Of a stretch of DNA of 64,000 nucleotides, positions 27,662 to 53,641 are shown piece by piece. The position numbers were made by a program, and so were the translations under genes. Position 1 is the first letter of the stretch. Every line of letters starts with the position of its first letter. A model generated the notes under the pieces. The model was not told where the DNA came from and did not search any database. It worked only from the letters and a program-made list of their open reading frames with translations. Source of the stretch: an uncultured Methanosarcinales archaeon (GTDB taxonomy: Archaea > Nanobdellota > Nanobdellia > Woesearchaeales > CAYSVS01); assembly GCA_964589485.1 (NCBI GenBank), contig CAZPRK010000002.1:49825-113824 (forward strand). Reading direction: 5' to 3'.

Positions 27662-27810
27662 GGGGGCATAGTATAACCTGGCTAGAATAGCTGGCTCCAA
27701 ACATGGAGCGATGAGGCTTCGGCCGATGATTAAGCCTTGGGATACACCAGTTGATTCCAATAACTATCGTATTGGAAGCTGAAATCTGGGTTCAAATCCC
27801 AGTGCCCCCA
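27662..27810 (+). tRNA. tRNA-Trp (anticodon CCA) interrupted by two introns: a canonical 37/38 intron (27701-27745, 45 nt) and a second intron in the variable loop (about 27754-27783, 30 nt); the mature tRNA is 74 nt with no encoded CCA
   Basis: Acceptor stem GGGGGCA / UGCCCCC with discriminator A73. T arm CUGGG-UUCAAAU-CCCAG. Anticodon stem GCUGG (27690-94) pairs with CCAGU (27747-51), with loop CUCCAAA (C32 U33 CCA A37 A38). Conserved G18 G19, A14, A21 and an A15:U48 pair are present. Intron 1 forms an hBHBh' motif: bulges AAA and ACA, central helix UCC/GGA, and intron helix CA..GG / CC..UG. Intron 2 forms a relaxed HBh' motif: the 8-bp hairpin UUCCAAUA/UAUUGGAA flanked by helix CAGU/GCUG, with bulges UGA and AAA. 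Confidence 0.6.
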
Positions 27811-35508: not shown

Positions 35509-38500
35509 ATGAAAAATCTAAAATCAATTACACTATTATTTTTTATTTTATTTTCATTAAGTGTATCAGCAAATCATCAACCTGAGTTTATTACTGGGTC
35601 AATTGACATTGATACAAATGAATTAATAAATGGAAATGTAGTTTTATTAAATTCTGAAACTGGAGAAATTGAGACTAGAGGTGGTTCAAGAAATCGTTTT
35701 TATGATGTTGATCTTGATACTTTGTATTATGTAGTTTATGGTGCGGATGATTATAACACGGATACTGATATTGTTTATTTTGATTCTAGAATTCCTTTTT
35801 GTACTGATGAGTCTTGTACTTTTCAAAGAGAACAAATTATAACTAAATGTGATATGAACTATGCACAAAATGCATTTGAATGTAGTGTAAGCGATGGAAC
35901 TGGAACTTCTTATTTTGTATATGATATTGAAGAAAATGATTATAAAAGAGTAAATTATTTGAAACATTTTGGAAAAAGTGACGAATTTTTAATTAATGTT
36001 AGGGCTGAGAATGAAGATGGTATGGTTGACCATATCGATAGTGCAATTATAAATGGAATTAAAACTTCAGGAAGAAATGCATATTTTATTGTATCATCTG
36101 ATACTAAGTATGATTTAACAATTGATCAATCTGGACATGAAAAATTTAGTCAAGAACTTTATTTTGATTCTGATATAACAGCTTGTGAAGGGAATTGTGA
36201 TCACGTAAGTAATGGTTATGAAACTACTTGTTGGAATGTTGCATCTGATAGAAAAAAATGTGAAGTTTCAAATGGATTAGTTTATTATCTTGATGGAAAT
36301 ATTGAAATAAATTTTGAATCAATTTTACAAAAAAAACAAACTCAAACTATTAATTTTAAAACTGGATCCTTAAGTGCAACAACTGACGAAATGTTACAAT
36401 CGGATATTGCGATTCTAGGAGAAAGAGAATCTAGTGTTAATACTTTTGACTTACCATTAAATGAAGTTGTTACAATAACTCATTTTGCAAACGGGTATCA
36501 AAATTATGTAGATTTTATTTATGTAGACTCTGGTATTTTATCTTGTAATGGGTCAACATGTGATGTTGAAAGTAATGGATTTACAACTACTGGTGTATTT
36601 AATAATAATGAAAATGCTTGGGAATTTACTGTAACTGATGTTAATAGTATTTCTAGATCATATGTTTATGATTTAGATGATAATGTTGTTAAAAGAGTTG
36701 TAAGAATGATTCCTGCTTTACGTTTTGAATATGATTTTATTACTGGAGTTCAAGATGTTGATACTGGTGAAATGATAGAGTTTCTTTCAGTATTAACGGA
36801 TAGTAAGAATAACATAGTTAGAGCTGAAGATGATGAAACTTCTGTTGCATATGATATAGAACTAGATACTTTATATTATATAACTTATTCTGCAGAAAAT
36901 TACGGATCAGAAACTGATGTTTTATACTTTGATTCAGGAGTTCCTACTTGTGTAAATGGAGATTGTGAATTTGAAAGTAACGGTGTATCAACTTCTTGTA
37001 GTAAAAATGATGCAGAAAATGCTTTAGAATGTAGCATAACTGATGGAACTGGTACTGATTATTATGTATATGATTTTGATGATAGTAATTTTAAAAGAAT
37101 AAACTATTTGAAAAAGAATAGTGCTGCTGATCAATTTAATTTATTGATTAATGGAAAAAATGAAGCAAATGGTGTTTTTTTTGATGATTTTACTGTTACT
37201 TTAGGGGGTATAACTAAATCAACTAATTTCGAACATGGTAATGAGGTTCATTTTATTATTTCACCTGATACTTTATATTCTGCAAAAATAAGTAAGAATG
37301 ATGGTTTTGGTGTATTTGAAGATTTAGCTATAAATTATTACCTTGACTCTAGGTTAACTACTTGTGGTAATGCTTGTGAATTGGAAGAAAATGAAGCAGG
37401 GTATAGTACTTCTTGTTCTGGAAGTACTTGTAGTGTATTTAAAGATGGTAGCGAAATAAGTAACTTTGTTTTCGATACTGGTATTAATGCTGCTTGGGAT
37501 ACTGTTTCGCTAAAACCAATTAAAGCAGATTATTACAGATTTAGAACAGGGGCATTAAATGAGTTTAATGACGAAATTGATGACATTACTGTTGAAATTA
37601 ATGGAGTTAGTAAGCAAAATGATAAACCTGAGTTAACAGTTCCTTCAAATGAAGCTTTTGGAATAAAATATACTCACAAAGATTATGAAGATTTGAATGA
37701 TTTTTTATATGTAGATGAAAAAATTATTACTTGTGGTGGGAATGATTGTACTTTAACTAGTGGGGAATTTACAACTACTGGAACATATAACAATAATGAA
37801 AGAGCTTGGGAATTTACAGTAAGTGATGATAATGGAATATCAAGATCTTTTGTTTATGATAATCAAGGAATAATTAAAAGAATTGTTAATATGGATGTAA
37901 AAGACGGAGCAGATATAATTAAGCCTACTTTTAGTAATCCTATGCCTGCGCAAGATTCTTTAGTTACTGAAGAACCTTTTTGGATAACTATAGATGTTAC
38001 TGATAATGTTGGTATAAATGAAGGTTCTGCAGATTTATGGTTAGATGGAAGATATTTTAATCCTATTTTTGAAAATGGACAAATTAAATATTTAGTTGAT
38101 AGTAATATTTTATTAAAAGGCGAGCATAGAGTTGAAGTTCGTATAGAAGATACTAATGATAATGATGCAAGTTTTGATTGGGAATTTAATTTAGATTTAA
38201 GACCGAATGTAGATTTTACAATAAGTCCTAATCCTGCTAATATAAATGAGTTTATCACATTCGATGCATCTTTATCAAATGATGATGGAACAATTGTTTC
38301 ATATGTTTGGGATTTTGGAAATGGGGTACAAGCTTCTGGAATAGAACCTGAGTATCTTTATTCAAATTCAGGAAATTATGATGTAACTTTAACTGTTACT
38401 GATGACGCAGGAACAAGTTCACAGTTAACGAAAACTGTTGTTGTATTAAGTACAAATCAAGCACCTGTTGCGGAAGCACAGGCTGATAAAACTATAGTTT

Positions 38501-39843
38501 TAGTGAATGAGAATATTCAGTTTGATGATGATTCCTTTGACCCTGATGGAAATATTGTAAGTTATTTCTGGGATTTTGGAGATGGAAGTACTTCAACTTT
38601 AGCTGGACCTTTATACAGTTATAGTCAACCTGGACAGTATACTGCAATTTTAACAGTAACTGATAATGATGGTGCAACTAATAATGATAGTATTACAATT
38701 ACTGTAAATGCTCAAGCAAATCAACCACCTATTGCTGTAGCAAAGGCGGATAAAACTACTGTAAGAGTTAATGAAAATATTCAATTTGATGCAACTGATT
38801 CAAGTGATCCTGAAGATGACTTTTTAGTTTATGCTTGGTTTTTTGGAGATAATAAATTAAGTTTTAGTAAGACGCCAATTCATTCATTTGATGATGAAGG
38901 AATTTATAACGTAACTTTAACTGTTACAGATACAAGTTTAAATGTAGCAAGACAAAATATTATAATTACTGTAGTTGAAGATGATTTTCCTATTGCAATT
39001 GCAAAAGCTGATAAGACTACTGTTAAAGTAGGAGAAGTTGTTAATTTTGATGCATCTGAATCTACAGATGATGGAACAATTGAATCTTATCTATGGAATT
39101 TTGGAGATAATACTTTTTCAGATAAAGAACAAGTAGGACATACTTTTACAAGTCCGGGTGGATATATAGTATCTCTTACTGTTACTGATGAAAGTGGTCA
39201 ATCTAGTACAAGTAAAATAGGCATAACTGTAACTGAATCTGAAGTAAGTCCAACTGCTAATGCAAAAGGACCTTATAGTGGATTTGTAAATGAAATAATT
39301 AACTTCGATGGAAGTTCTTCATTAGGTGATATTGTAAAATATCAGTGGACTTTTGGAGATGGTTCTGTGGCTGAAGGATCTCAAGTATCTCATACTTATG
39401 GGAACGTGGGAAGATTTGTAGTTACTTTAACAGTTACTGATCAAAATGGGTTAACGCATACTTCTCAAACAGAAGCAAATGTAGATGCTCGAATTATAGC
39501 GCAACCTCAACCTAGTAAGGAAAAGAGAGAATTAAAAATCTCAAGAATTTCATCTTTAGGTGGAGGAATTGCATATGCTGGAGATGTTACATCTTTCAAA
39601 GTTAAGCTAGAAAATACTGGTGACTTGGATTTAGAAAATGTTAGAATTAAAGCATTTATTCCTGAGTTATTTGTATATGACAGTACTGGAACTTTCGATT
39701 TAGATGATGGAGATAGTGAAACTAAACAGTTACTATTGAATGTTCCTGGTGATGCACAATCAGATAGTTACTTGGTTAAGTTTAGTATTAGCCAAGGAGG
39801 AGAAAATATTAGGACTAAATATAGGTATATTTTCATAGAATGA
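35509..39843 (+). CDS. Giant secreted adhesin-like protein (1444 aa) with duplicated N-terminal modules, about six PKD domains and a CARDB-like C-terminal domain
   Basis: Signal peptide MKNLKSITLLFFILFSLSVSA. A tandem about 400-aa super-repeat (DTLYYVVYGADDYNTDTDIVYFDS... and DTLYYITYSAENYGSETDVLYFDS...). Repeated PKD units (FDASLSNDDGTIVSYVWDFGNGV...YDVTLTVTDDAGTSS, five or more copies). Confidence 0.8.
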   Translation: MKNLKSITLLFFILFSLSVSANHQPEFITGSIDIDTNELINGNVVLLNSETGEIETRGGSRNRFYDVDLDTLYYVVYGADDYNTDTDIVYFDSRIPFCTDESCTFQREQIITKCDMNYAQNAFECSVSDGTGTSYFVYDIEENDYKRVNYLKHFGKSDEFLINVRAENEDGMVDHIDSAIINGIKTSGRNAYFIVSSDTKYDLTIDQSGHEKFSQELYFDSDITACEGNCDHVSNGYETTCWNVASDRKKCEVSNGLVYYLDGNIEINFESILQKKQTQTINFKTGSLSATTDEMLQSDIAILGERESSVNTFDLPLNEVVTITHFANGYQNYVDFIYVDSGILSCNGSTCDVESNGFTTTGVFNNNENAWEFTVTDVNSISRSYVYDLDDNVVKRVVRMIPALRFEYDFITGVQDVDTGEMIEFLSVLTDSKNNIVRAEDDETSVAYDIELDTLYYITYSAENYGSETDVLYFDSGVPTCVNGDCEFESNGVSTSCSKNDAENALECSITDGTGTDYYVYDFDDSNFKRINYLKKNSAADQFNLLINGKNEANGVFFDDFTVTLGGITKSTNFEHGNEVHFIISPDTLYSAKISKNDGFGVFEDLAINYYLDSRLTTCGNACELEENEAGYSTSCSGSTCSVFKDGSEISNFVFDTGINAAWDTVSLKPIKADYYRFRTGALNEFNDEIDDITVEINGVSKQNDKPELTVPSNEAFGIKYTHKDYEDLNDFLYVDEKIITCGGNDCTLTSGEFTTTGTYNNNERAWEFTVSDDNGISRSFVYDNQGIIKRIVNMDVKDGADIIKPTFSNPMPAQDSLVTEEPFWITIDVTDNVGINEGSADLWLDGRYFNPIFENGQIKYLVDSNILLKGEHRVEVRIEDTNDNDASFDWEFNLDLRPNVDFTISPNPANINEFITFDASLSNDDGTIVSYVWDFGNGVQASGIEPEYLYSNSGNYDVTLTVTDDAGTSSQLTKTVVVLSTNQAPVAEAQADKTIVLVNENIQFDDDSFDPDGNIVSYFWDFGDGSTSTLAGPLYSYSQPGQYTAILTVTDNDGATNNDSITITVNAQANQPPIAVAKADKTTVRVNENIQFDATDSSDPEDDFLVYAWFFGDNKLSFSKTPIHSFDDEGIYNVTLTVTDTSLNVARQNIIITVVEDDFPIAIAKADKTTVKVGEVVNFDASESTDDGTIESYLWNFGDNTFSDKEQVGHTFTSPGGYIVSLTVTDESGQSSTSKIGITVTESEVSPTANAKGPYSGFVNEIINFDGSSSLGDIVKYQWTFGDGSVAEGSQVSHTYGNVGRFVVTLTVTDQNGLTHTSQTEANVDARIIAQPQPSKEKRELKISRISSLGGGIAYAGDVTSFKVKLENTGDLDLENVRIKAFIPELFVYDSTGTFDLDDGDSETKQLLLNVPGDAQSDSYLVKFSISQGGENIRTKYRYIFIE

Positions 39844-43520: not shown

Positions 43521-44588
43521 ATGATAAATGTAATAGGAGCAGGTCCAGTTGGAGCTTTTGCGGCTCAATCTTTATCTGAAAAAGGTTTTGATGTTAATCT
43601 TTATGAAGAAGATAAAGCTATAGGGAAACCAGTTCAATGTACGGGTTTGTTAACTAAAGATTTCTTAAAATATTTTAAAAATTATGAATTAGATGATTTT
43701 GTTGTTAATAAAATAAAAAATATTAGAATTGTTAGTGGAGAAAGTTTTACTATTCCGGTAAATGAATATATAGTAGATCGAACTTTGTTTGATAGTTATC
43801 TTGTTAAAAGAGCTCAAAATAATGGAGTAAATTTATTTTCTCATCATAAATTTATTTCTAAAGATGATGAATATATTTATTTTGAAAATGGAGTTAAACA
43901 AAAATATGATTTTGTAATTGGTTCCGATGGACCTAGAAGTAGTGTAGCAAAACAATTTGAAATGGGTGGAAAGAGAGAATTTTGGATGGGTATGCAAGCT
44001 AAAGTTAAACTTGAAAGTAATCCTGATGAATATGTTGTTTATTTTGATCAAGAAAAATACCCTGGCTTTTTTGCTTGGCAAGTTCCTGAAGATGAAACTT
44101 ATTCTCGGGTTGGAGTAGCAGGAATAAGGCCAAAAAAAGCTTTTGAAGAATTGTTAAAAGAATTAGGTGTAAAAGATATAGTTGAATATCAATGTGGTTT
44201 AATTCCTATGTACGATAGAAGTATAGTTTCTCAGAAAGATAACGCTTATTTAATCGGAGATGCTGCATTACAAGTAAAAGCAACTACTGGTGGCGGAATT
44301 GTTCCAGGGATGAATGCTGTAAAATATTTAACTGATTCAATTGAAAATAATTCAAATTATGATGTAAATTGGAAAAGAAAATTGGGACTTAATTTACATT
44401 TAAAAATACGAAATGTTTTAGATAAATTTTCTAATAGTGATTATGAAAAGTTAGTTAATTTAATGTCCACTGAAAAAGTTGTTAAAGTTATGGGTGAAAC
44501 TTCTCGTGATGATGTCGTTAAATTAGCTTTTAAAATGGCTATCGCACAACCAAGGTTAATTTCTTTTTTACCAAAGTTATTTAAATAA
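43521..44588 (+). CDS. Geranylgeranyl reductase family FAD-dependent oxidoreductase (digeranylgeranylglycerophospholipid reductase-like)
   Basis: MINVIGAGPVGAFAAQSL FAD-binding GxGxxG motif and the IGDAALQVKATTGGGI motif typical of archaeal GGR. Confidence 0.8.
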   Translation: MINVIGAGPVGAFAAQSLSEKGFDVNLYEEDKAIGKPVQCTGLLTKDFLKYFKNYELDDFVVNKIKNIRIVSGESFTIPVNEYIVDRTLFDSYLVKRAQNNGVNLFSHHKFISKDDEYIYFENGVKQKYDFVIGSDGPRSSVAKQFEMGGKREFWMGMQAKVKLESNPDEYVVYFDQEKYPGFFAWQVPEDETYSRVGVAGIRPKKAFEELLKELGVKDIVEYQCGLIPMYDRSIVSQKDNAYLIGDAALQVKATTGGGIVPGMNAVKYLTDSIENNSNYDVNWKRKLGLNLHLKIRNVLDKFSNSDYEKLVNLMSTEKVVKVMGETSRDDVVKLAFKMAIAQPRLISFLPKLFK

Positions 44589-44606: not shown

Positions 44607-44987
44607 ATGTCGGAAACAAAGTTATGGGCAATTTTTGTTGTACTTTTTTGTACTTTATTCACATCAACTGCTCAAATTTTACTAAAAACTGGAATAAATA
44701 ACTTTAATTTAAGTTCTTTATTGACAAATTATACATTAATAGGTGGGTTGGTTATTTATGCATTAGGTGCAGTATTATTGATAATTAGTTTTAAAGGTGG
44801 AGAAGTAACTGTTATTTATCCTGTTTTTGCCACTAGTTATATTTGGGTTTTATTATTATCTGTATTTTTTCTTGATGAAGCATTTACATTTTATAAAATT
44901 GCATCTATATTGTTAATAATTACTGGAATTTTTTTTGTTACCAAAGGTGGTAGAAAAATGTATAGTGAGGCTGAGCCAATTGACTGA
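44607..44987 (+). CDS. 4-TM small multidrug resistance/EamA-type membrane protein (ArnE/ArnF-like flippase subunit)
   Basis: 126 aa, four hydrophobic helices. Confidence 0.55.
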   Translation: MSETKLWAIFVVLFCTLFTSTAQILLKTGINNFNLSSLLTNYTLIGGLVIYALGAVLLIISFKGGEVTVIYPVFATSYIWVLLLSVFFLDEAFTFYKIASILLIITGIFFVTKGGRKMYSEAEPID

Positions 44988-45321
44988 ATTATGGGCTATA
45001 TTGTTAACTTTATTTTCTTCTTTAATCGGAAGTTTAGGGCCAATATATGTTAAAAAAGGAACTGATATTTTAAACTTAAAAACTATTCATAGAAATCATT
45101 ATTTAATATTTGGAGTTTTAATTTATGGTATATCTCTTTTTTTATTTATGATTGCAATGAGAGGGGGAGAAATTTCAGTATTATATCCTATAGTTTCAAC
45201 TAGTTACATTTGGATTGCTTTTTTATCTAAGCGGAAGTTAAATGAAAAAATGAATACTTATAAATGGGCAGGGATTTTTTTAATAATTGTTGGTGTAACT
45301 TTACTTGCTATAACTAGTTAA
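44964..45321 (+). CDS. Second 4-TM SMR/EamA-type membrane protein; overlaps upstream partner
   Basis: Homologous to the preceding ORF. The start is uncertain: the track uses TTG 44935, while GTG 44964 or TTG 44976 give shorter overlaps. Confidence 0.45.
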
Positions 45322-45392: not shown

Positions 45393-48386
45393 ATGGAGAA
45401 TCATGAAGAGAAAAAAGAAGAAAATATTGACTTTAAAAAAGTTCTAGGGAAGACTAAAGACTATTTTAAAAATCCTCCATTTATGACTTTTTTTAAGAAT
45501 AATAAAACTTGGATTATTCCTGTTTTATGTTTAATTATTGCTATGTCTTTTAGTATATTTATGAGAATTCAACCTGATTATTTACCAATTACAGATAGAT
45601 GGGCTGCAAGTAACATCGATAGTGGAATAAGAAGTCAAGTGAAAGGACAAATAGATAGACAATATCCTAACCTTCCTGATGAAAATAAAGTTTCTTTAAT
45701 TGACGCAGAAGTTGCAAAAACATATCAACAACATGGAGCTGCAATTGAACAACAAAAGCAACAAATAAGTCAAGGTTTAAAGGCCCAATTACAAGACGAA
45801 AATGGTCAAACTTATTTATTGGCAATTGATCCTTATTATTGGTATGGCTTGGCCAGAAATAAAGTAAATAATGGTCATTATGGAGATAAATTTAATGAAA
45901 ATAAAGATAGTGTTTATACATTAAGAGATGGAAGAATTGATAAAAAAGTTCCGCAAGCATTAAATCCAGTAGCAATGTTTTATTTATATAAAATTATGAA
46001 TTTTTTTAACAGGGATGTAACTTTGTTTAAAGCTGCATTTTATTTGCCAATGCTTTTGGTTACTTTGGCAGTAATTCCTATTTTCTTTATTACACGAAAA
46101 TTGGCAGGAAATTTTGGAGGGTTATTTGCTGGAATTATTTTTTCAGTTAATGGTGCGTTATTAGCTAGAACTCCTGCAGGTTTTGCTGATACTGACCCAT
46201 ATAATGTATTATTTCCTGCATTTATTGCATGGATGTTATTGGAAGCTTTAGATGCAGAAAAACATAGCTTTAAAATTTTATTTGCTACATTATCTGGATT
46301 AGTAACTGGGTTATTTGCTTGGGCTTGGTCAGGATGGGGATTTATGTATGACTTTGTTTTAGCTACATTAGGTGTAACTTTTGTATATTATGTGTTTGTT
46401 AATAGAAAACATTTAACATTTAGGAATTTATTTAAAGATTTTAAAGTTATAGGGTTTATTCAACTTGGGGTTACTTATTTATTGGCTTCAGGTGTTTTTG
46501 TTACATTATTTTCTTCATATAAAACATATACTGCAGCGTTATTAAAACCATTGAAATTTATTAATATTAAAGCTGTTGCTGTAGATAGTGTATGGCCAAA
46601 TGTAATGACAACAGTTGCTGAATTTAATGTTGTCAATATTTCTAATATAATGAGTCAAATGGGTGGTAGGTTTTTATTTTTCTTATCAGTGATTGGTATT
46701 TTTTTAGCATTACTTAAAAAAGATAAAAATAATCATAGAGATGTTGGATATTTCTTTTTGTTGGCAATTTGGTTTATTGGAACAACATTTGCGTTTACTA
46801 GAGGAACTAGATTTGCATTATTGATGGTGCCTGCATTCGCTATAGCTTTAGGTGTAACTATTGGTGTAGTTTATACAAAGTTAAGTAGTTGGTTATCCAG
46901 TGAACTTAATGTGAATAAAAGGTTATCTCAAACTGTTTTATTTTTAATTCTAGCCTTATTATTAATAGGTCCAGTAAAAACAGCATACGGAATTAGTTTA
47001 AATGAAATTCCTTCTTTTAATGATGGGTGGAATAACGAGTTAACTAAAATAAAAAAAGCATCTGAAGATTCTATTATAACATCTTGGTGGGACTTTGGTC
47101 ATTGGTTTGTTGCAATGGGAAATACAAGAGTTACGTTTGATGGTGGAGATCAAGGAAAAAGAATTCATTGGGTTGGTAGGAGTTTATTAACAGATGATGA
47201 AACTGAAGCAAATGCAATATTAAGAATGTTAAATTGTGGACAAGAAAAAGGTGAAGAGTTATTATCTGAATATATGGGAAGTGAATATGTTGCTGTTAAA
47301 TTATTAAAAGAAATTATTATGTTGGATGATAAAAGTGCAAAATTAAAGTTAATTGAGAAAGGTTTAACTGAAGAACGATCAAATGAAGTTTTAACTTTAA
47401 CTCATTGTAATGATTTAATAGATAATTATTACATTACTTCACAAGATATGGTTGGAAAGTCAGGAGTATGGGGACATTTTGGTAGTTGGGATTTTGATAA
47501 AGCTGCAATGTATAACCAAGTTAGAACTTTAGAATATAATGATGGAGTTTCTATTTTATCAAATGAATTTGGTTTAAGTGATGATTTAGCAGATAGATAT
47601 TTTTATGAAATTAAGAATCAAGACCCTGATAGGTGGATAAGTCCTTGGCCTGGATATGCGTCAGGTGTTTCTTCATGTTCAAAGACTGATAATTTAGTTA
47701 AATGTGGAAATGGTTTAGAAGTTAACTTAGATACATTTGATGCTTTTGTTTATCCTCAACAAGGAAAATCACGTATTAAAAGTTTAGCTTATATTGACAA
47801 TAATAACGAATATCAATTAAAAGAATTTGATCCTGAAGTTAACTTTGGAGCTATATTAATTCCTAACGGAAATAGTTTTAATTCAGTATTAACTTCACCA
47901 GAACAAACTGGATCAATGTTTTCCAGACTTTATTTTTTAGGTGGACATGGTTTAAAACATTTTCAACCTTTTAGTAGAACTAGAACATTTAACGGATTAA
48001 ATATTTATACTTATAAAATAGATTTTCAAGGTGGGGAAAAAGTTATTGATGAAAATTTATTACCGCCTTTAGAATTAAGCGCTCAACATATTTTATTAAA
48101 ATCAAGTGATAATGAATCTTTAAAAAGAATAACTGAAATAAGAAATTTAGCTCTTACTTCTGATTTTGGGGATTTGGCAACAAAGTATTCTCAAGGTCCA
48201 ACTAATGCAACTAAGGGTGAATTAGGTTGGTTTTCTAAAGGTATGATGGTTAAACCTTTTGAAGAAGCTGCATATGCTTTAGAAATTGGAGAAATATCTG
48301 AGCCAGTATTAACACAATTTGGATATCATATAATTAAGATAAATGCTAAGCGGAGAGGATCTGTAGAGGAAAATGGATTCAAATGA
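45393..48386 (+). CDS. aglB: Oligosaccharyltransferase AglB (STT3 family) with a C-terminal parvulin-type peptidyl-prolyl isomerase (PpiC) domain
   Basis: 997 aa. Multi-TM N-terminal half, then SWWDFGHWFVAMGN (the WWDYG catalytic motif). The last about 95 aa (SAQHILLKSS...GELGWFSKGMMVKPFEEAAYALEIGEISEPVLTQFGYHIIK) are a canonical parvulin/PpiC rotamase domain. Confidence 0.8.
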   Translation: MENHEEKKEENIDFKKVLGKTKDYFKNPPFMTFFKNNKTWIIPVLCLIIAMSFSIFMRIQPDYLPITDRWAASNIDSGIRSQVKGQIDRQYPNLPDENKVSLIDAEVAKTYQQHGAAIEQQKQQISQGLKAQLQDENGQTYLLAIDPYYWYGLARNKVNNGHYGDKFNENKDSVYTLRDGRIDKKVPQALNPVAMFYLYKIMNFFNRDVTLFKAAFYLPMLLVTLAVIPIFFITRKLAGNFGGLFAGIIFSVNGALLARTPAGFADTDPYNVLFPAFIAWMLLEALDAEKHSFKILFATLSGLVTGLFAWAWSGWGFMYDFVLATLGVTFVYYVFVNRKHLTFRNLFKDFKVIGFIQLGVTYLLASGVFVTLFSSYKTYTAALLKPLKFINIKAVAVDSVWPNVMTTVAEFNVVNISNIMSQMGGRFLFFLSVIGIFLALLKKDKNNHRDVGYFFLLAIWFIGTTFAFTRGTRFALLMVPAFAIALGVTIGVVYTKLSSWLSSELNVNKRLSQTVLFLILALLLIGPVKTAYGISLNEIPSFNDGWNNELTKIKKASEDSIITSWWDFGHWFVAMGNTRVTFDGGDQGKRIHWVGRSLLTDDETEANAILRMLNCGQEKGEELLSEYMGSEYVAVKLLKEIIMLDDKSAKLKLIEKGLTEERSNEVLTLTHCNDLIDNYYITSQDMVGKSGVWGHFGSWDFDKAAMYNQVRTLEYNDGVSILSNEFGLSDDLADRYFYEIKNQDPDRWISPWPGYASGVSSCSKTDNLVKCGNGLEVNLDTFDAFVYPQQGKSRIKSLAYIDNNNEYQLKEFDPEVNFGAILIPNGNSFNSVLTSPEQTGSMFSRLYFLGGHGLKHFQPFSRTRTFNGLNIYTYKIDFQGGEKVIDENLLPPLELSAQHILLKSSDNESLKRITEIRNLALTSDFGDLATKYSQGPTNATKGELGWFSKGMMVKPFEEAAYALEIGEISEPVLTQFGYHIIKINAKRRGSVEENGFK

Positions 48387-49035
48387 TGTTTGGGTTGTGG
48401 TTCCGGCTTGTAATGAGGAACAACATATTTCTTTAGTTCTTAATGATATTAAAAAATATACTAATAATATTATTTTGGTTGATGATGGAAGTAAAGATAA
48501 TACTGTTAAAATTTCTGAAGGTTTAGGTGTAATTGTATTAAAACATATGTTTAACTTAGGAAAGGGCGCAGCATTAAAGACAGGGTGTGACTTTGCTTTA
48601 AAGAAAAAGGCAAATAAAATTATAGTTATTGATTCAGATGGACAACATAAACCTGAAAATATTCCTGATTTTTTGAAAGCTCTAGAAACTAATGATATTG
48701 TTTTTAGTTATAGGACTCAAAGGGATGTTATGCCTTTAGTATTACGTTTTGGGAATTGGGTTATTAATACTGTATCTTATTTCTTATTTGGATTAAAATT
48801 AAAAGATACTCAATGTGGATACAGAGGGTTTACAAGTAATGCATATAAATTAGTTAAATGGGAAGCAGTTGATTATTTTATGGAATCTGAGATGGTTGCA
48901 AAAGCTGGAAGAGCTAAATTAAAGTATGTTCAAATTCCAATTGATACAATTTATAGTAACAAATATAAGGGAACTACTGTTTTAGATGGAATAAGGATTG
49001 TATTAAACATGTTTATTTGGAGGTTATTTAAATGA
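48373..49035 (+). CDS. GT2 dolichyl-phosphate sugar synthase-like glycosyltransferase (DPM1/AglD/AglJ-like)
   Basis: VVVPACNEEQHI...IILVDDGSKDNT; 220 aa. Confidence 0.8.
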   Translation: MDSNDVWVVVPACNEEQHISLVLNDIKKYTNNIILVDDGSKDNTVKISEGLGVIVLKHMFNLGKGAALKTGCDFALKKKANKIIVIDSDGQHKPENIPDFLKALETNDIVFSYRTQRDVMPLVLRFGNWVINTVSYFLFGLKLKDTQCGYRGFTSNAYKLVKWEAVDYFMESEMVAKAGRAKLKYVQIPIDTIYSNKYKGTTVLDGIRIVLNMFIWRLFK

Positions 49036-49358
49036 TATTAGGAATACAAATGGTTGGTATTTTATTTGGGTTACTTATGTTATATTTTGCATTTATTCAT
49101 TTTAAAAGAAAAGAAATGAAAAATTTTGAATTTTCAATTTGGTTTATTGTTTGGATTTTTTTTGTATTTTTAACAATTTTCCCAAATAGTTTAGATTTTA
49201 TAGCTACAACTTTAAATTTAGTAAGAACAATGGACTTTTTAACAGTTATGGGTTTTTTATTTTTGATAGGTTTAACTTATCATAATTATTTTGTAACTAA
49301 AAAGAACGAAAAGAATATTGAGAAAATTGTACGAGAAATATCATTAAAAGATAAGTAA
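49032..49358 (+). CDS. Small 3-TM membrane protein (DUF2304-like partner of the Dol-P glycosyltransferase)
   Basis: 108 aa with three hydrophobic helices. ATGA overlap with the upstream GT2 gene. Confidence 0.45.
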   Translation: MILGIQMVGILFGLLMLYFAFIHFKRKEMKNFEFSIWFIVWIFFVFLTIFPNSLDFIATTLNLVRTMDFLTVMGFLFLIGLTYHNYFVTKKNEKNIEKIVREISLKDK

Positions 49359-49390: not shown

Positions 49391-49726
49391 ATGTACAAAT
49401 TTAAAGATTTAAGAAAGAAAGTTACACATAGTAAAGTATATTTACAAAGAACAATGTCATGGCTTAGCATGGCAAATGCAGGAATGATTTTATTTTTAGT
49501 GTTAAGTAAATTACAAGATTATGGCTATAAAATATATATAACTTATTGGATTATTCCAATATATTTATTATTTTTTTTGTTATTGATTTTGTTTGGTTTT
49601 ATCGAGGATAAACTTGGGTTTCATAGGGAAGAAAAAAAGTTAAATGAAGATAGAAGTCCTTATGTTAAAGAATTATTTAAAAGAATGGATAGGTTAGAAC
49701 GTAAAATTAACGGATTGAAAAAATGA
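49391..49726 (+). CDS. Small membrane protein, hypothetical
   Basis: 111 aa with two hydrophobic helices and a basic C-terminus. Overlaps the downstream GT4 start. Confidence 0.35.
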   Translation: MYKFKDLRKKVTHSKVYLQRTMSWLSMANAGMILFLVLSKLQDYGYKIYITYWIIPIYLLFFLLLILFGFIEDKLGFHREEKKLNEDRSPYVKELFKRMDRLERKINGLKK

Positions 49727-50841
49727 AAATTTTATTTGTATTAGAAAATTACATCCCACATATTGGTGGTGTTGAAATTGTTTTTAAAATATTAGCTGAA
49801 GGATTAGTTAAGAAAGGTCATCAAGTTGAAATAGTTACTCATAGAATTAAAGGTACTAAAAAATTTGAAGAAATAAATGGTGTGAAGATATATAGAGTAG
49901 AAAGTTTATCATCAAGGCATATTTTTACTTTTACATCTATTTTTGAAGTTATTAAACGTTCTAAAGATTGTGACATTATACATACTACAACTTACAATGG
50001 TGCTTTTCCTGCAAAAATTGCATCTATAATAAATAAAAAACCAGTAATAATAACTGTTCATGAAGTTTTAGGACAGTTATGGAGAAGTACAGGTGTTGGT
50101 TTTTTTCAATCTACAATATTAAGATTTTTGGAATTTTTAATTATTAAATTAAATTTTGATTATTATTTAACTGTTTCAAATTCCACAAGGCAACAGGTTT
50201 TGAATTGTAATGTTGAAGAAAATAAAGTTCAAACTGTTTATAATGGAGTTGATTATAGGTTATGGAACCCTAAAAAGAATGATATTGGTTTAAGAAAAAA
50301 ATTAAAACTTCAAGATAATTTTGTAATTTTATTTTATGGAAGACCTGGAATTAGTAAAGGTTTAGAATTTTTAATTAAAGCTTTACCAATAGTGTTTTCT
50401 AAAATTCCAAATGCAAAGTTTTTTGGTATTGTTAGTAAAGATAAAGCATATTCTTCAAGATATAAGTATATTTTGAGGTTAGTAAATAAGTTAGGAATAA
50501 AAGATAAATGTATATTTAATGACCCTGTGAAATATGTTGATTTGCCAAATTATATTTCTATGGTTAATTGTGTAATTGTTCCAAGCTTAACTGAAGGGTT
50601 TGGGTTTACTGCAGCTGAAAGTTGTGCAATGAATAAAATTGTGGTTGCAAGTAACACTACTTCACTTCCAGAAGTTGTTTCTGGGAAGTATACATTAGTA
50701 GAACCTGGGAATTCAGAAGCTATAGCAAATGGAATAATTGATGCTTATAATAACAAGTACAAAAAATCGAAAAAAAAATTCTTTTTAATACGAGATAATA
50801 TCAATAATTATGAAGATATTTATACTAAAATACTTACCTAA
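49723..50841 (+). CDS. GT4 (group 1) glycosyltransferase
   Basis: TEGFGFTAAESCAMNKIVVAS matches the E-x7-E motif; 372 aa. Confidence 0.75.
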   Translation: MKILFVLENYIPHIGGVEIVFKILAEGLVKKGHQVEIVTHRIKGTKKFEEINGVKIYRVESLSSRHIFTFTSIFEVIKRSKDCDIIHTTTYNGAFPAKIASIINKKPVIITVHEVLGQLWRSTGVGFFQSTILRFLEFLIIKLNFDYYLTVSNSTRQQVLNCNVEENKVQTVYNGVDYRLWNPKKNDIGLRKKLKLQDNFVILFYGRPGISKGLEFLIKALPIVFSKIPNAKFFGIVSKDKAYSSRYKYILRLVNKLGIKDKCIFNDPVKYVDLPNYISMVNCVIVPSLTEGFGFTAAESCAMNKIVVASNTTSLPEVVSGKYTLVEPGNSEAIANGIIDAYNNKYKKSKKKFFLIRDNINNYEDIYTKILT

Positions 50842-50896: not shown

Positions 50897-53641
50897 ATGT
50901 CTAAGTCAAAAATTATAGTTTCATTAGGTCCTAGTACTTCAACAGAAGATGATTTAAGGAAGATTAAAGCTAAAGGAGTAGATTTTGTTAGGATTAATAT
51001 GAGTCATAGTTCTTTACAAGATTTAGAAAAATATATTTTAATGGCAAAAAAGGTAGGAATTCCTTTTATTGTTGATACTGAAGGAAGTCAGGTAAGATCT
51101 GGAGATTTAGTTCATAATAAAATTATAATTAATGAAGGGGATGAAGTTGTACTTCATTCTAAAGCAATCAAAGGAGATGAAAAAAATATTACTTTAAACC
51201 CAGGAACTATAATTAATCAATTAGAAGTGGGAGATATTTTACATTGTGATTTTGATACTTTAATTTTACGTGTTTCTGATGTTTCAAATGCTATTAATGG
51301 AAGTATAAAATCAGTAGCCGTAACTGGTGGATATTTAGGAATTAATAAAGGAATTGCATTTGATTTAGGAAGAGATAGAACTTTGAAACTTCCTATTTTG
51401 AGTGAAAAAGATTTAGGTGCAATAGAATTAGGTTTAAAATATAATGTTGAACATATTGCTGCATCATTTATGAGAAGAGGAAGTGATGTTAAGAAAGTAA
51501 GAGAATTAAGCCAAGGAAAAATGAAAATTATTTCTAAAGTTGAATGTAGAGATGCATTAGATAATTTACAAGAAATAATTGATGAGACTGATTATATATT
51601 AATAGATAGGGGAGATTTAAGTAAAGAAGTTCCTTTAGATATGTTACCTTTTTTACAAAAATTAATTATTAAAAAAGCAGGAAATAAAGAAGTTTTTGTT
51701 GCAACTAATTTACTTGAAACTATGATTTTACATAAAAAGCCAACAAGAGCAGAAGTTAATGATGTAATGAATACTTTATTAGATGGGGCAAAAGGTTTAA
51801 CTTTAGCAGCTGAAACAGCAATAGGAAAATATCCTTTTGAATGTATTAATATTTTGCAAAAGCTAATTAATCATTATTTACAATGGGTTCATGAAGGAAA
51901 TGTTTTAGAAGAGTTAGAAAAAAATAATTATTTAGATAATAAGTTATCTTCAGCTTTAGTTCCACCTCATGGTGGAAAGTTAGTAAATAGGATTTCTAAT
52001 AAAGTTATAAATGAAAATTTATCTAAAATAATTATTGATGATAATAAACAAATGGATGTTGAACAAATTGCAGTAGGGACATTTAGTCCTTTGGAAGGGT
52101 TTATGGGAAAAAATGATTTACAATCTGTATTAGATAATATGAGATTAAGTAATGGTGTAATATGGCCATTGCCAATTTTATTGGATGTAACCGAATCTAA
52201 AGCTAAATCTATTAATGAGGGCGAGGAAATATTGTTAGTTAATTCCATTGGAGAAAAAATTGCAACTATGGATATTGAGGAAAAATATAAGTTTGATAAA
52301 AAAGAATTAGCACAAAAAGTATACGGGACATTAGATGAAAAACACCCTGGAGTTAGAATGGTTTTACAAATGAAATCTATTTTTTTAGCAGGGAAAATTA
52401 ATTTAATTAAAAGAAAAGAATCTGAATTTAAAGAATATGAAATGACTCCTAGGCAAGTTAGAAGGTTATTTGAAGAAAGAAATTGGTCTAAAATTGTTGG
52501 ATTTCATACACGGAATGTAATACATAGAAGTCATGAATTTATTCAGTTAAAAGCAATGGAGAATGAAAATTGTGATGGGTTATTTGTACATCCTGTCATA
52601 GGTAAAAAGAAAAAAGGTGACTTTAATTCTCAATATATTATTAAAAGTTATGAATTAATGAAAAAACATTATTATCCTAAAAATAAAGTTATTTTTTCTA
52701 CTTTTTCTACTTTTTCAAGGTATGGTGGACCAAGGGAAGCTTTATTTACTGCAATATGTAGAAAGAATTTTGGATGTTCACATTTTATTGTTGGAAGAGA
52801 TCATACTGGAGTTGGAGATTTTTATCATCCGCACGCATCTCATATGATTTTTGATAATTTTTTAGATTTAGGAATTAAACCAGTAAAATTTGATAAAGTG
52901 TTTTATTCAGAAAAAATAAATGAACATGTACATGAAAAAGAAGATGATTCTCATGAAGAAGAAGATAAATTACATATAAGTGGAACTCAAGCAAGGAAAA
53001 TGTTTGAAAATCAAGAAACTCCACCTGAATGGTTTATAAGGTCTAGAATTTCATCAATGATTATAGATTCTGTAAGAAATAATGAAGAAGTTTTTGTAAA
53101 AGAACAAAATAAAGGAAAAGTTATTTGGTTTACTGGATTAAGTGGGAGCGGAAAAAGTACAATTGCTAATTCATTAAAAGAAAAATTAGAATTTTTTGGG
53201 AAAAGTGTAATTATTGTTGATGGAGATATTGTTAGAAATAGTTTTAATAAACATTTAGGATTCTCAAGAGAAGATATAAGAGAAAATAATAGTATTATTT
53301 CAGAAATATGTAAAGAACATCAAAATAAATTTGATTATATATTAGTTCCAATAATTTCGCCTTTCAAGGAAGATAGACAAATGGCTTCAGCTTTAATTGG
53401 TGAAGATTTTATTGAATTGTTTATTAATTCTTCATTGGAAGTGTGTAAAGAAAGAGATGTTAAAGGGTTATATAAGAAAGCTGTTGCTGGTGAAATTGAA
53501 AATTTTATTGGTATAAGTGCTCCTTATGAAGCTCCTGAAAACCCAAATATTTCAGTTAAAACAGATGAAGAAAGTTTAGATGAATCTATTGATAAAATTA
53601 CTGGATATTTAAAAAATTCAGGATTGCTGCAAAACATTTAA
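50897..53641 (+). CDS. Trifunctional protein: pyruvate-kinase-like barrel domain + ATP sulfurylase + APS kinase (PAPS synthase)
   Basis: The N-terminal about 330 aa have pyruvate-kinase motifs (VRINMSHSS; MKIISKVECRDAL; IDRGDLSKEVP; LDGAKGLTLAAETAIGKYP). The middle carries GFHTRNVIHRSHEF and IVGRDHTGVG (ATP sulfurylase QTRN/HRAH and GRDHAG motifs). The C-terminus carries IWFTGLSGSGKSTIA (APS kinase P-loop). Confidence 0.8.
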   Translation: MSKSKIIVSLGPSTSTEDDLRKIKAKGVDFVRINMSHSSLQDLEKYILMAKKVGIPFIVDTEGSQVRSGDLVHNKIIINEGDEVVLHSKAIKGDEKNITLNPGTIINQLEVGDILHCDFDTLILRVSDVSNAINGSIKSVAVTGGYLGINKGIAFDLGRDRTLKLPILSEKDLGAIELGLKYNVEHIAASFMRRGSDVKKVRELSQGKMKIISKVECRDALDNLQEIIDETDYILIDRGDLSKEVPLDMLPFLQKLIIKKAGNKEVFVATNLLETMILHKKPTRAEVNDVMNTLLDGAKGLTLAAETAIGKYPFECINILQKLINHYLQWVHEGNVLEELEKNNYLDNKLSSALVPPHGGKLVNRISNKVINENLSKIIIDDNKQMDVEQIAVGTFSPLEGFMGKNDLQSVLDNMRLSNGVIWPLPILLDVTESKAKSINEGEEILLVNSIGEKIATMDIEEKYKFDKKELAQKVYGTLDEKHPGVRMVLQMKSIFLAGKINLIKRKESEFKEYEMTPRQVRRLFEERNWSKIVGFHTRNVIHRSHEFIQLKAMENENCDGLFVHPVIGKKKKGDFNSQYIIKSYELMKKHYYPKNKVIFSTFSTFSRYGGPREALFTAICRKNFGCSHFIVGRDHTGVGDFYHPHASHMIFDNFLDLGIKPVKFDKVFYSEKINEHVHEKEDDSHEEEDKLHISGTQARKMFENQETPPEWFIRSRISSMIIDSVRNNEEVFVKEQNKGKVIWFTGLSGSGKSTIANSLKEKLEFFGKSVIIVDGDIVRNSFNKHLGFSREDIRENNSIISEICKEHQNKFDYILVPIISPFKEDRQMASALIGEDFIELFINSSLEVCKERDVKGLYKKAVAGEIENFIGISAPYEAPENPNISVKTDEESLDESIDKITGYLKNSGLLQNI

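What the first reader, a model, noticed from the sequence alone, without database searches (positions are those of the whole stretch)
45393..48386. AglB oligosaccharyltransferase carrying a C-terminal parvulin PPIase domain
The WWDFG catalytic motif and multi-TM N-terminus identify an STT3/AglB oligosaccharyltransferase. The last about 95 residues are an unmistakable PpiC-type rotamase domain (GELGWFSKGMMVKPFEE...FGYHIIK). The C-terminal domain of AglB is extracytoplasmic, so this would place a prolyl isomerase on the outer face, physically coupled to N-glycosylation of secreted proteins. I do not know of a described AglB-PPIase fusion.
Basis: partly seen in the sequence, partly recalled or inferred. 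Interest (0 to 1): 0.65.

Follow-up and report, generated by a model that had tools for sequence, protein, structure and literature searches.

The report
Archaeal glycosylation enzyme fused to foldase
A tiny uncultured (DPANN/Woesearchaeota-type) archaeon encodes its protein N-glycosylating enzyme AglB as one polypeptide with a prolyl-isomerase (protein-folding) domain on the outer face of the membrane. Related archaea carry the same or an unrelated prolyl isomerase at that spot, which points to a hard-wired link between glycosylation and folding of secreted proteins that has not been described.

Summary
Window 45393-48386 (+) is one uninterrupted 997-aa ORF. It holds an STT3/AglB oligosaccharyltransferase (Pfam STT3 1.9e-39) with all catalytic motifs aligned to PglB, a 13-TM-type AF2 model (pLDDT 90) and a C-terminal parvulin domain (aa 894-986, Rotamase 7.7e-20, 42% identical to PrsA, TM-score 0.86).

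It is not an artefact. The identical protein lies on 7 contigs from separate assemblies, and 54 of the 120 nearest protein clusters (39-56% identity) and 28 of 80 GTDB species representatives share the architecture.

Another 18-19 clusters (8 species) carry an unrelated FKBP-type PPIase at the same position of the orthologous, syntenic gene. About 40% have none.

No TM segment follows the WWDFG motif, and the fused PPIase domains are enriched in N-glycosylation sequons, unlike free parvulins. The domain is therefore extracytoplasmic.

The most likely role is a PrsA-like foldase or holdase tethered to the OST. One caveat: the query has Gly at the catalytic Cys/Asp position (family: D 26, G 23, C 6), so catalysis may be weak.

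No paper describing the fusion was found, and databases name only one half of the protein. Verdict: a new variant of a known kind.

The parts
45393..48386 (+). Whole gene: AglB oligosaccharyltransferase with C-terminal parvulin domain (997 aa plus stop)
   Evidence: Single ORF. Identical protein on 7 contigs. Pfam STT3 plus Rotamase.
45504..47000 (+). Membrane (GT-C) domain, aa 38-536, with about 13 TM helices; the N-terminus (aa 1-37) is K/R-rich and cytoplasmic
   Evidence: AF2 helices, hydropathy, Foldseek match to PglB 6gxc with TM-score 0.71.
45570..45959 (+). Enlarged external loop 1 (aa 60-189) with two long helices (66-90, 96-131) and the clade-specific YPNLP motif
   Evidence: Present in parvulin, FKBP and unfused classes alike, so it is not tied to the PPIase.
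45828..45830 (+). D146 in the invariant 'IDPYYW' motif (EL1 catalytic Asp; resembles the eukaryotic STT3 FDPYFNYR motif, recalled from memory)
   Evidence: Invariant column in 55 sequences. The correspondence is by motif only and was not aligned by HMMER.
46188..46196 (+). D266-T-D268, the DxD metal-binding motif
   Evidence: Aligned to PglB D154-T-D156; invariant.
46611..46622 (+). T407-V-A-E410, the TIXE motif of external loop 5
   Evidence: Aligned to PglB T316-I-M-E319; invariant.
47085..47099 (+). W565-W-D-F-G569, the WWDxG acceptor-binding motif
   Evidence: invariant.
47022..48020 (+). Extracytoplasmic C-terminal globular domain of AglB (aa 544-876), including the invariant D685-M-V-G-K689 DK-like motif
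   Evidence: AF2, Pfam STT3-PglB_core, Foldseek match to the PglB C-terminal domain 3aag.
48021..48071 (+). Short linker (aa 877-893) between the OST core and the parvulin domain
48072..48350 (+). Parvulin (PpiC-type) PPIase domain, aa 894-986. H899 and H979 are the dual histidines; L944, M952 and F956 form the proline pocket; two sequons, N907ES and N938AT
48195..48197 (+). G935, which occupies the position of Pin1 Cys113 / PrsA and Par14 Asp (a catalytic residue); Gly in this protein
   Evidence: family: D 26, G 23, C 6.
43521..44588 (+). Geranylgeranyl-reductase-like flavoprotein, conserved directly upstream of AglB in related loci
48373..49035 (+). GT2 glycosyltransferase; its start overlaps the AglB stop by 14 nt (operon)
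   Evidence: Syntenic.
49032..49358 (+). DUF2304 small membrane protein, a conserved partner of the GT2
49723..50841 (+). GT4/GT1-type glycosyltransferase of the conserved cluster

Best explanation
The gene encodes a bona fide archaeal oligosaccharyltransferase (AglB, STT3 family) of a Woesearchaeota-type DPANN archaeon. Its extracytoplasmic C-terminal globular domain is extended by a short linker and a PrsA/Par10-like parvulin domain. SHOWN: the fusion is real, old, vertically inherited and under purifying selection. The parvulin lies on the outer face of the membrane together with the OST active site. Orthologs at the same syntenic locus carry a parvulin, an unrelated FKBP domain with an intact pocket, or nothing. 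INFERRED: the appended domain binds Xaa-Pro segments of polypeptides that emerge from the Sec pore next to the OST. There it acts as a membrane-tethered foldase or holdase. It would either keep acceptor segments flexible long enough to be glycosylated or speed up proline-limited folding once the glycan is on. This would give these genome-reduced, wall-less cells a PrsA-like extracytoplasmic folding catalyst placed exactly where surface proteins are modified. Parvulin and FKBP share nothing except prolyl-peptide binding and isomerisation, so that activity, not a structural role of one particular fold, is the most probable target of selection. Confidence is above 0.9 for the architecture and topology and about 0.55 for the foldase-coupled-to-glycosylation mechanism.
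For: The fusion is real: single ORF; identical protein on 7 contigs; 54 of 120 nearest clusters and 28 of 80 GTDB species share it. Both domains are supported by profiles and by fold. The OST catalytic motifs are aligned and invariant. Topology: no TM segment after WWDFG and a 13-TM-like model. Sequons are enriched in the fused parvulins (60 vs 33 expected, z=5.2) and the fused FKBPs (52 vs 21, z=7.6; one site in 19/19) but not in free parvulins (22 vs 21). Selection on the pocket: the Pin1 H59 and H157 equivalents, L122, M130, F134 and T152 are invariant or nearly so at ~50% domain identity. The FKBP residues Y26, F36, D37, Y82, H87 and F99 are kept in 17-19 of 19. The parvulin co-diverges with the OST core (Mantel r=0.55, 0/2000). 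The synteny GGR-like - AglB(+/-PPIase) - GT2 - DUF2304 - GT4 is conserved across all three architectures. Precedent for a PPIase-fold protein sitting beside an OST: human FKBP11 at OST-A (PDB 9n9j; PMC12804085).
Against: The query has Gly (G935) where catalytic Cys/Asp sits in active parvulins, and 23 of 55 family members do too, so catalytic efficiency may be low. About 40-50% of close orthologs lack any PPIase domain and have no PPIase gene within 4 kb, so the domain is dispensable for OST function. No coordinates or PAE were available, so the distance and orientation between the parvulin pocket and the acceptor-peptide site are unknown. In the only solved OST-plus-PPIase assembly, the FKBP11 pocket is buried and an adaptor role is argued. 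There are no experimental data for any member.
Confidence: 0.6

Rival explanations
1. The parvulin (or FKBP) domain is a non-catalytic adaptor or structural module. It would recruit a partner (an S-layer or pilus component, a host-cell ligand, another OST-associated factor) or stabilise the AglB globular domain, without isomerising substrates. This is what is argued for human FKBP11 at OST-A and is true of the inactive P1 domain of SurA.
For: Gly replaces the catalytic Cys/Asp in the query and in 23 of 55 homologs. The FKBP11 pocket is buried by CCDC134 at the OST-A translocon, and the authors argue against an isomerase role. Frequent loss of the domain suggests an accessory role.
Against: Two unrelated PPIase folds occupy the same position, and both keep their prolyl-binding pockets. 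A purely structural role would not obviously select for either of these. Parvulin chaperone or binding function still uses this pocket, so this rival shades into the main explanation.
Confidence: 0.22
2. Anchor-only fusion. The cell needs an extracytoplasmic PPIase (a PrsA equivalent) and AglB merely supplies a membrane anchor with an outward-facing C-terminus. There is no functional coupling to N-glycosylation.
For: The closest solved relatives are PrsA foldases, which are simply lipid-anchored. DPANN genomes are reduced and fusions economise on anchors and signal peptides. The domain is lost without replacement nearby in many orthologs.
Against: In every case found here, both the parvulin and the FKBP are on AglB and at the same junction. 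Independent choice of the same carrier by two PPIase families suggests that the carrier matters. Other carriers were not searched systematically, so this is not excluded.
Confidence: 0.15
3. Artefact. A frameshift, assembly chimera or read-through joins two separate genes (AglB and a small parvulin gene).
For: None found. Free-standing ~90-aa parvulins are the closest relatives of the domain when it is searched alone, so a separate ancestral gene is plausible historically.
Against: The identical ORF is on 7 contigs from separate assemblies. There are 54 diverged homologs with the same in-frame junction. No locus among the 80 species has a separate PPIase ORF next to AglB. The AF2 model is confident through the junction.
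Confidence: 0.01

Closest known systems
AglB / STT3 / PglB oligosaccharyltransferases (e.g. A. fulgidus AglB-L 3WAJ/7E9S, C. lari PglB 3RCE/5OGL)
   Same: The Pfam STT3 domain, the GT-C multi-TM fold and the external C-terminal globular domain. The catalytic D, DxD, TIXE, Arg and WWDxG motifs are aligned and invariant. It sits in a glycosyltransferase gene cluster.
   Different: It carries an extra C-terminal parvulin domain that is absent from all solved OSTs matched here. It has an enlarged EL1 (~155 aa with two long helices). The DK-like motif has DxxxK spacing. It scores far below the cutoff of the TIGR04154 archaeosortase-associated AglB subfamily.
PrsA (Gram-positive membrane-anchored extracytoplasmic foldase) and single-domain parvulins (E. 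coli PpiC/Par10, archaeal NmPin/CsPinA)
   Same: The parvulin fold (TM-score 0.86, 42-45% identity to Bacillus PrsA PPIase domains). The dual His and Leu/Met/Phe pocket, and no phospho-specific basic loop. It is tethered to the outer face of the cytoplasmic membrane, like PrsA.
   Different: There is no PrsA N/C chaperone domain and no lipoprotein anchor; the anchor is the OST itself. NCBIfam PrsA models score far below their cutoffs (67 vs 361 bits). The catalytic Asp/Cys is Gly in this protein.
Human FKBP11 at the SEC61-OST-A secretory translocon (PDB 9n9j; PMC12804085)
   Same: A PPIase-fold protein positioned on the lumenal/external side next to the STT3 catalytic subunit. The DPANN sister fusions use an FKBP domain as well.
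   Different: The human association is non-covalent, depends on the ribosome and on CCDC134, and buries the FKBP11 pocket, for which an adaptor role is argued. Here the link is covalent, the organism has no multi-subunit OST, and the pocket residues are conserved.
Eukaryotic OST subunits Ost3p/Ost6p (TUSC3/MagT1), thioredoxin-like oxidoreductases (own knowledge; yeast Ost6p-OST structure 7oci appeared)
   Same: The concept is the same: a protein-folding catalyst physically attached to the OST that modulates substrate folding so that sequons remain accessible.
   Different: The chemistry differs (disulfide vs prolyl isomerisation). Those are separate subunits, and there is no homology.

Membership tests
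STT3/AglB/PglB oligosaccharyltransferase (GT66, GT-C fold) | Significant match to the STT3 family profile | tested here: met
   PF02516 E=1.9e-39, 136.8 bits vs cutoff 24.5.
STT3/AglB/PglB oligosaccharyltransferase (GT66, GT-C fold) | 13-TM GT-C membrane domain followed by an external globular domain | tested here: met
   AF2 pLDDT 90.2 with ~13 TM helices. Foldseek matches PglB 6gxc at E=2e-20, TM-score 0.71, and also STT3A/B and AglB 3wak/7e9s.
STT3/AglB/PglB oligosaccharyltransferase (GT66, GT-C fold) | Catalytic acidic residues (EL1 Asp, DxD, TIXE Glu) and the conserved Arg | tested here: met
   D266/D268, E410 and R473 align to PglB D154/D156, E319 and R375. D146 was identified by motif only. 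All are invariant in 55 sequences.
STT3/AglB/PglB oligosaccharyltransferase (GT66, GT-C fold) | WWDxG motif in the C-terminal domain | tested here: met
   WWDFG at aa 565-569 aligns to PglB WWDYG 457-461.
STT3/AglB/PglB oligosaccharyltransferase (GT66, GT-C fold) | DK (DxxK) or MI motif forming the Ser/Thr pocket | tested here: inconclusive
   An invariant D685-M-V-G-K689 (DxxxK spacing) is present, but no structural superposition was possible.
STT3/AglB/PglB oligosaccharyltransferase (GT66, GT-C fold) | Transfers a lipid-linked glycan to Asn of N-X-S/T | not testable with these tools
   Needs an in vitro OST assay or complementation.
TIGR04154 archaeosortase-A-associated AglB subfamily | Score above the subfamily cutoff | tested here: not met
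   60.7 bits vs cutoff 450. Not a member of this subfamily.
Parvulin (PpiC-type) PPIase | Significant match to the Rotamase profiles, and the parvulin fold | tested here: met
   PF00639 E=7.7e-20, PF13616 E=3.9e-20. PrsA fragment 6xd8 TM-score 0.86, rmsd 2.1 A.
Parvulin (PpiC-type) PPIase | Dual histidine motif and hydrophobic proline pocket (Pin1 H59, H157, L122, M130, F134) | tested here: met
   H899, H979, L944, M952 and F956 are present in the query and invariant or nearly so in 55 sequences.
Parvulin (PpiC-type) PPIase | Catalytic Cys/Asp (Pin1 C113, Par14 D74) | tested here: not met
   The query has G935. Family counts are D 26, G 23, C 6. Fold membership stands, but catalytic competence of this particular protein is uncertain.
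Parvulin (PpiC-type) PPIase | Measurable cis-trans isomerase activity | not testable with these tools
   Needs a protease-coupled or NMR exchange assay.
Pin1-type phospho-specific parvulin | Basic phosphate-binding loop (K63, R68, R69) | tested here: not met
   The loop is absent in 54 of 55 sequences.
PrsA foldase | Parvulin inserted in an N/C chaperone domain, lipoprotein anchor, equivalog-level score | tested here: not met
   NF002846 scores 67 bits vs cutoff 361, and only the parvulin part aligns. It may work like PrsA but is not a member.

The most novel reading that the evidence does not exclude
AglB-PPIase is a single-polypeptide glycosylation-and-folding machine. Prolyl isomerisation, or proline-directed holdase activity, at the OST would control which sequons get glycosylated and how surface proteins fold in wall-less DPANN archaea. 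This coupling would have been selected at least twice with unrelated PPIase folds (parvulin and FKBP). That would make it a prokaryotic, covalent counterpart of the eukaryotic OST accessory folding factors (Ost3/6, FKBP11).
Probability: 0.3. Interest if true: 0.75.

Novelty: new variant of a known kind. Interest (0 to 1): 0.6.

Why it matters
OSTs need unfolded or flexible acceptor segments, and how prokaryotes coordinate secretion, glycosylation and folding is poorly understood. A natural covalent OST-PPIase fusion is widespread in one archaeal lineage, and an unrelated PPIase family occupies the same position in sister proteins. This is strong comparative evidence that prolyl isomerisation or binding is useful right at the OST. 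It also gives a simple one-gene system for testing glycosylation-folding coupling: delete or mutate the domain and measure site occupancy. It identifies a candidate extracytoplasmic foldase for DPANN archaea, whose surface proteins mediate their symbiotic lifestyle. Finally, it offers an evolutionary parallel to the eukaryotic OST accessory factors (Ost3/6, FKBP11). Public databases currently name these proteins after only one half: 'peptidylprolyl isomerase', 'STT3 domain-containing protein' or 'hypothetical protein'.

Tried and rejected
1. Frameshift or chimera: rejected.
2. Split-gene ('Rosetta stone') versions: I looked for a separate parvulin or FKBP ORF within ~4 kb of AglB in 80 species loci and in the P0011 locus. 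None was found.
3. Degenerate PPIase remnants in 'unfused' homologs with 50-100-aa tails (P0116, P0097, P0081, P0056): none at E<=0.1.
4. A PrsA/SurA-like chaperone (N/C) domain accompanying the parvulin: there is no Pfam SurA_N or PrsA-type hit at E<=1, and only the parvulin part aligns to PrsA.
5. The idea that the enlarged EL1 loop is a partner of the PPIase: rejected, because it is equally conserved in parvulin, FKBP and unfused classes.
6. Searching with the parvulin domain alone returned only free ~90-aa parvulins. The word index did not even recover the fused homologs. So it says something about likely ancestry (PpiC/PinA-type) but nothing about other carriers.
8. Model coordinates and PAE are not exposed, so the geometry between the parvulin pocket and the OST active site could not be measured.
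9. Nine literature searches for a prior description found nothing relevant, and the 2024 archaeal N-glycosylation review contains no mention of an isomerase or a fusion. Subscription-only papers were not searchable.
10. The NJ tree has no support values, so the number of independent losses and FKBP replacements is not established.
Full report
**1. Observation**

Window 45393..48386 (+) is a single 997-aa ORF with no internal stop. An RBS-like GGGG lies upstream, and the stop overlaps the start of the next gene (a GT2) by 14 nt.

Pfam finds STT3 (PF02516) at aa 134-524 (E=1.9e-39), the STT3/PglB core domain at aa 559-656 (at threshold), and PpiC-type rotamase at aa 894-986 (PF00639 E=7.7e-20; PF13616 E=3.9e-20). 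NCBIfam and PDB sequence searches agree. The C-terminus is most similar to Bacillus PrsA PPIase domains (6vj6, E=1.3e-18) and to the archaeal parvulin NmPin (2m08). The core is most similar to C. lari PglB.

**2. Not an artefact**

The identical 997-aa protein is encoded on 7 contigs from separate assemblies, for example a 142-kb JGI contig and a Logan assembly of SRR8062318.

Of the 120 nearest 90%-identity protein clusters, at 38-64% identity, 54 have a C-terminal parvulin at the same junction (39-56% identical to the query). Another 18-19 have a C-terminal FKBP_C domain, and about 47 end right after the OST core.

An independent count on GTDB species-representative genomes gives 28 parvulin, 8 FKBP, 41 unfused and 3 truncated among the 80 best loci. 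At least 580 related loci exist. No locus has a separate PPIase ORF within ~4 kb of AglB.

Labels are Woesearchaeota, Nanoarchaeota or Nanoarchaeia, i.e. DPANN. The many 'uncultured Methanosarcinales' TPA labels look like placeholders. The window itself has ~27% GC and encodes an archaeal/eukaryotic-type translation initiation factor (IF-2/aIF5B domains).

**3. The OST half**

The AF2 model, built on a 55-sequence alignment, is confident (pLDDT 90.2, pTM 0.84). It shows a K/R-rich N-terminus, about 13 TM helices, an enlarged EL1 with two long helices, a mixed alpha/beta globular domain (aa 544-876) and then the parvulin fold (aa 893-988).

Foldseek ranks PglB (6gxc, E=2e-20, TM-score 0.71), human and yeast STT3 and A. 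fulgidus AglB on top.

HMMER alignment to PglB places D266-T-D268 on D154-T-D156, T407-V-A-E410 on T316-I-M-E319, R473 on R375, and W565-W-D567 on W457-W-D459. All of these, plus D146 in 'IDPYYW', are invariant across 55 homologs.

A DK-like motif (D685-M-V-G-K689) is invariant but has non-canonical spacing. The protein does not belong to the archaeosortase-associated TIGR04154 subfamily.

**4. The parvulin half**

The dual histidines (H899, H979) and the proline-pocket residues (L944, M952, F956, and the Thr equivalent to Pin1 T152) are invariant or nearly so across the 55 fused domains. The Pin1-type phosphate loop is absent, so this is a Par10/PrsA-like, non-phospho-specific parvulin.

The position of the catalytic Cys113 (Pin1) or Asp (Par14, PrsA, NmPin) is variable: D in 26, G in 23, C in 6. 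The query has Gly (G935). This is the main caveat for catalytic competence of this particular protein.

Searched alone, the domain's nearest relatives are free ~90-aa parvulins at 42-58% identity over most of the domain, including ones from methanogens. This suggests capture of a PpiC/PinA-type gene.

**5. Topology**

No hydrophobic segment lies between the last TM helix (~aa 516-534) and the C-terminus. The parvulin must therefore be on the same side as the WWDFG motif. In all solved OSTs that side is extracytoplasmic or lumenal (established knowledge; structures listed).

There is independent support from sequons. N-X-S/T sequons are enriched relative to shuffles in the AglB-fused parvulins (60 vs 33.1, z=5.2, 0/500) and in the AglB-fused FKBPs (52 vs 21.1, z=7.6; one sequon in 19/19). 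They are not enriched in free parvulins (22 vs 21.1, z=0.2). The sequences are related, so the z-scores overstate independence, but the contrast is clear. The query's parvulin carries 2 of the protein's 4 sequons (N907ES, N938AT).

**6. Evolution**

Pairwise identities of the parvulin domain and the OST core are correlated (Mantel r=0.55, 0 of 2000 permutations). The domain was therefore inherited with the core and not repeatedly re-acquired.

In an NJ tree of the core, parvulin forms are spread over the whole tree. FKBP forms fall mainly in one clade plus a few outliers, and unfused forms are interspersed (no support values).

All three architectures sit in the same syntenic cluster: GGR-like flavoprotein - AglB - GT2 - DUF2304 - GT4. 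The simplest reading is an old parvulin fusion, at least one replacement by FKBP, and multiple losses.

The FKBP domains are full-length (P0046 E=7.6e-20). They retain the FKBP12 pocket residues: Y26, D37 and Y82 in 19/19; F36 and H87 in 18/19; F99 in 17/19; W59 changed to F.

**7. Mechanism**

What is shown: a real, conserved, extracytoplasmic PPIase-fold domain covalently attached to the OST.

What is inferred: it binds or isomerises Xaa-Pro segments of nascent secreted proteins near the OST, acting as a PrsA-like foldase or holdase coupled to N-glycosylation. The strongest argument is that two unrelated folds, whose only common property is prolyl-peptide binding and isomerisation, occupy the same position with conserved pockets.

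Rivals are as follows:
- A non-catalytic adaptor, as argued for human FKBP11, whose pocket is buried at the OST-A translocon (PDB 9n9j; PMC12804085). The Gly at the catalytic position points this way.
- An anchor-only fusion without functional coupling.
- An artefact, which is excluded.

**8. Comparison and novelty**

The protein is a member of the STT3/AglB family and of the parvulin fold family. The catalytic Cys/Asp criterion is not met in this sequence. It is not a PrsA and not a Pin1-type parvulin.

Nine full-text literature searches and a check of a 2024 review of archaeal N-glycosylation found no description of an AglB- or STT3-PPIase fusion. Public records name such proteins 'peptidylprolyl isomerase', 'STT3 domain-containing protein', 'hypothetical protein' or 'dolichyl-phosphooligosaccharide-protein glycotransferase'.

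The sequences are thus public but the architecture appears unrecognised. I rate it a new variant of a known kind, with interest 0.6. It is not unique to this window, but it is a lineage-wide, apparently convergent OST-foldase coupling that can be tested directly.

Noticed in passing
window 50897-53641 (+): A 914-aa four-domain fusion: pyruvate-kinase barrel (aa 2-317), PUA_2, ATP-sulfurylase and APS kinase. It lies just downstream of the AglB cluster. It points to PAPS synthesis, possibly for sulfated glycans. A PK barrel fused to a PAPS synthase is unusual.
   Followed up: no
window 44607-44987 and 44935-45321 (+): Two overlapping small 4-TM EamA-type half-transporters directly upstream of AglB, resembling an ArnE/ArnF-like pair. 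They are a candidate flippase for a lipid-linked sugar. They are absent from the P0011 and P0046 loci.
   Followed up: partly
window 43521-44588 (+); also L003 3896-4966, L004 3872-4912: A geranylgeranyl-reductase-like flavoprotein is conserved immediately upstream of AglB in all three architecture classes. It is a candidate polyprenol/dolichol reductase for the glycan carrier lipid.
   Followed up: partly
window 35509-39843 (+): A 1444-aa protein with a signal peptide is strongly depleted in N-X-S/T sequons: 3 observed vs 19.6 expected from shuffles, z=-4.4, 0/1000, despite 8% Asn. This is odd for a putative surface protein encoded 6 kb from the OST.
   Followed up: partly
L004/L005 5001-8360 (P0046) and 18 other clusters: Orthologous AglBs carry a C-terminal FKBP_C domain instead of the parvulin, with pocket residues conserved and an N-x-T sequon present in 19/19.
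   Followed up: yes
window 45570-45959 (aa 60-189 of AglB): A clade-specific enlarged external loop 1 (~155 aa between TM1 and TM2) with two long helices and the invariant residues R58, P65, W70, P92, L94, P95 (YPNLP motif). It is present whether or not a PPIase is fused. Its function is unknown.
   Followed up: partly
window 27662-27810 (+): The only Rfam hit in 64 kb is a tRNA spanning 149 nt for a 71-position model. It probably contains an intron, as is common in archaea.
   Followed up: no
L006, L007, L009 and many other CAY*/CAZ* loci; L066: Many TPA MAG records titled 'uncultured Methanosarcinales archaeon' carry AglBs nested among Woesearchaeota/Nanoarchaeota sequences, so the label is probably a placeholder. 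One 3.4-kb contig in a 'Candidatus Aminicenantes bacterium' bin (L066) carries the same archaeal AglB, which is probably bin contamination.
   Followed up: no
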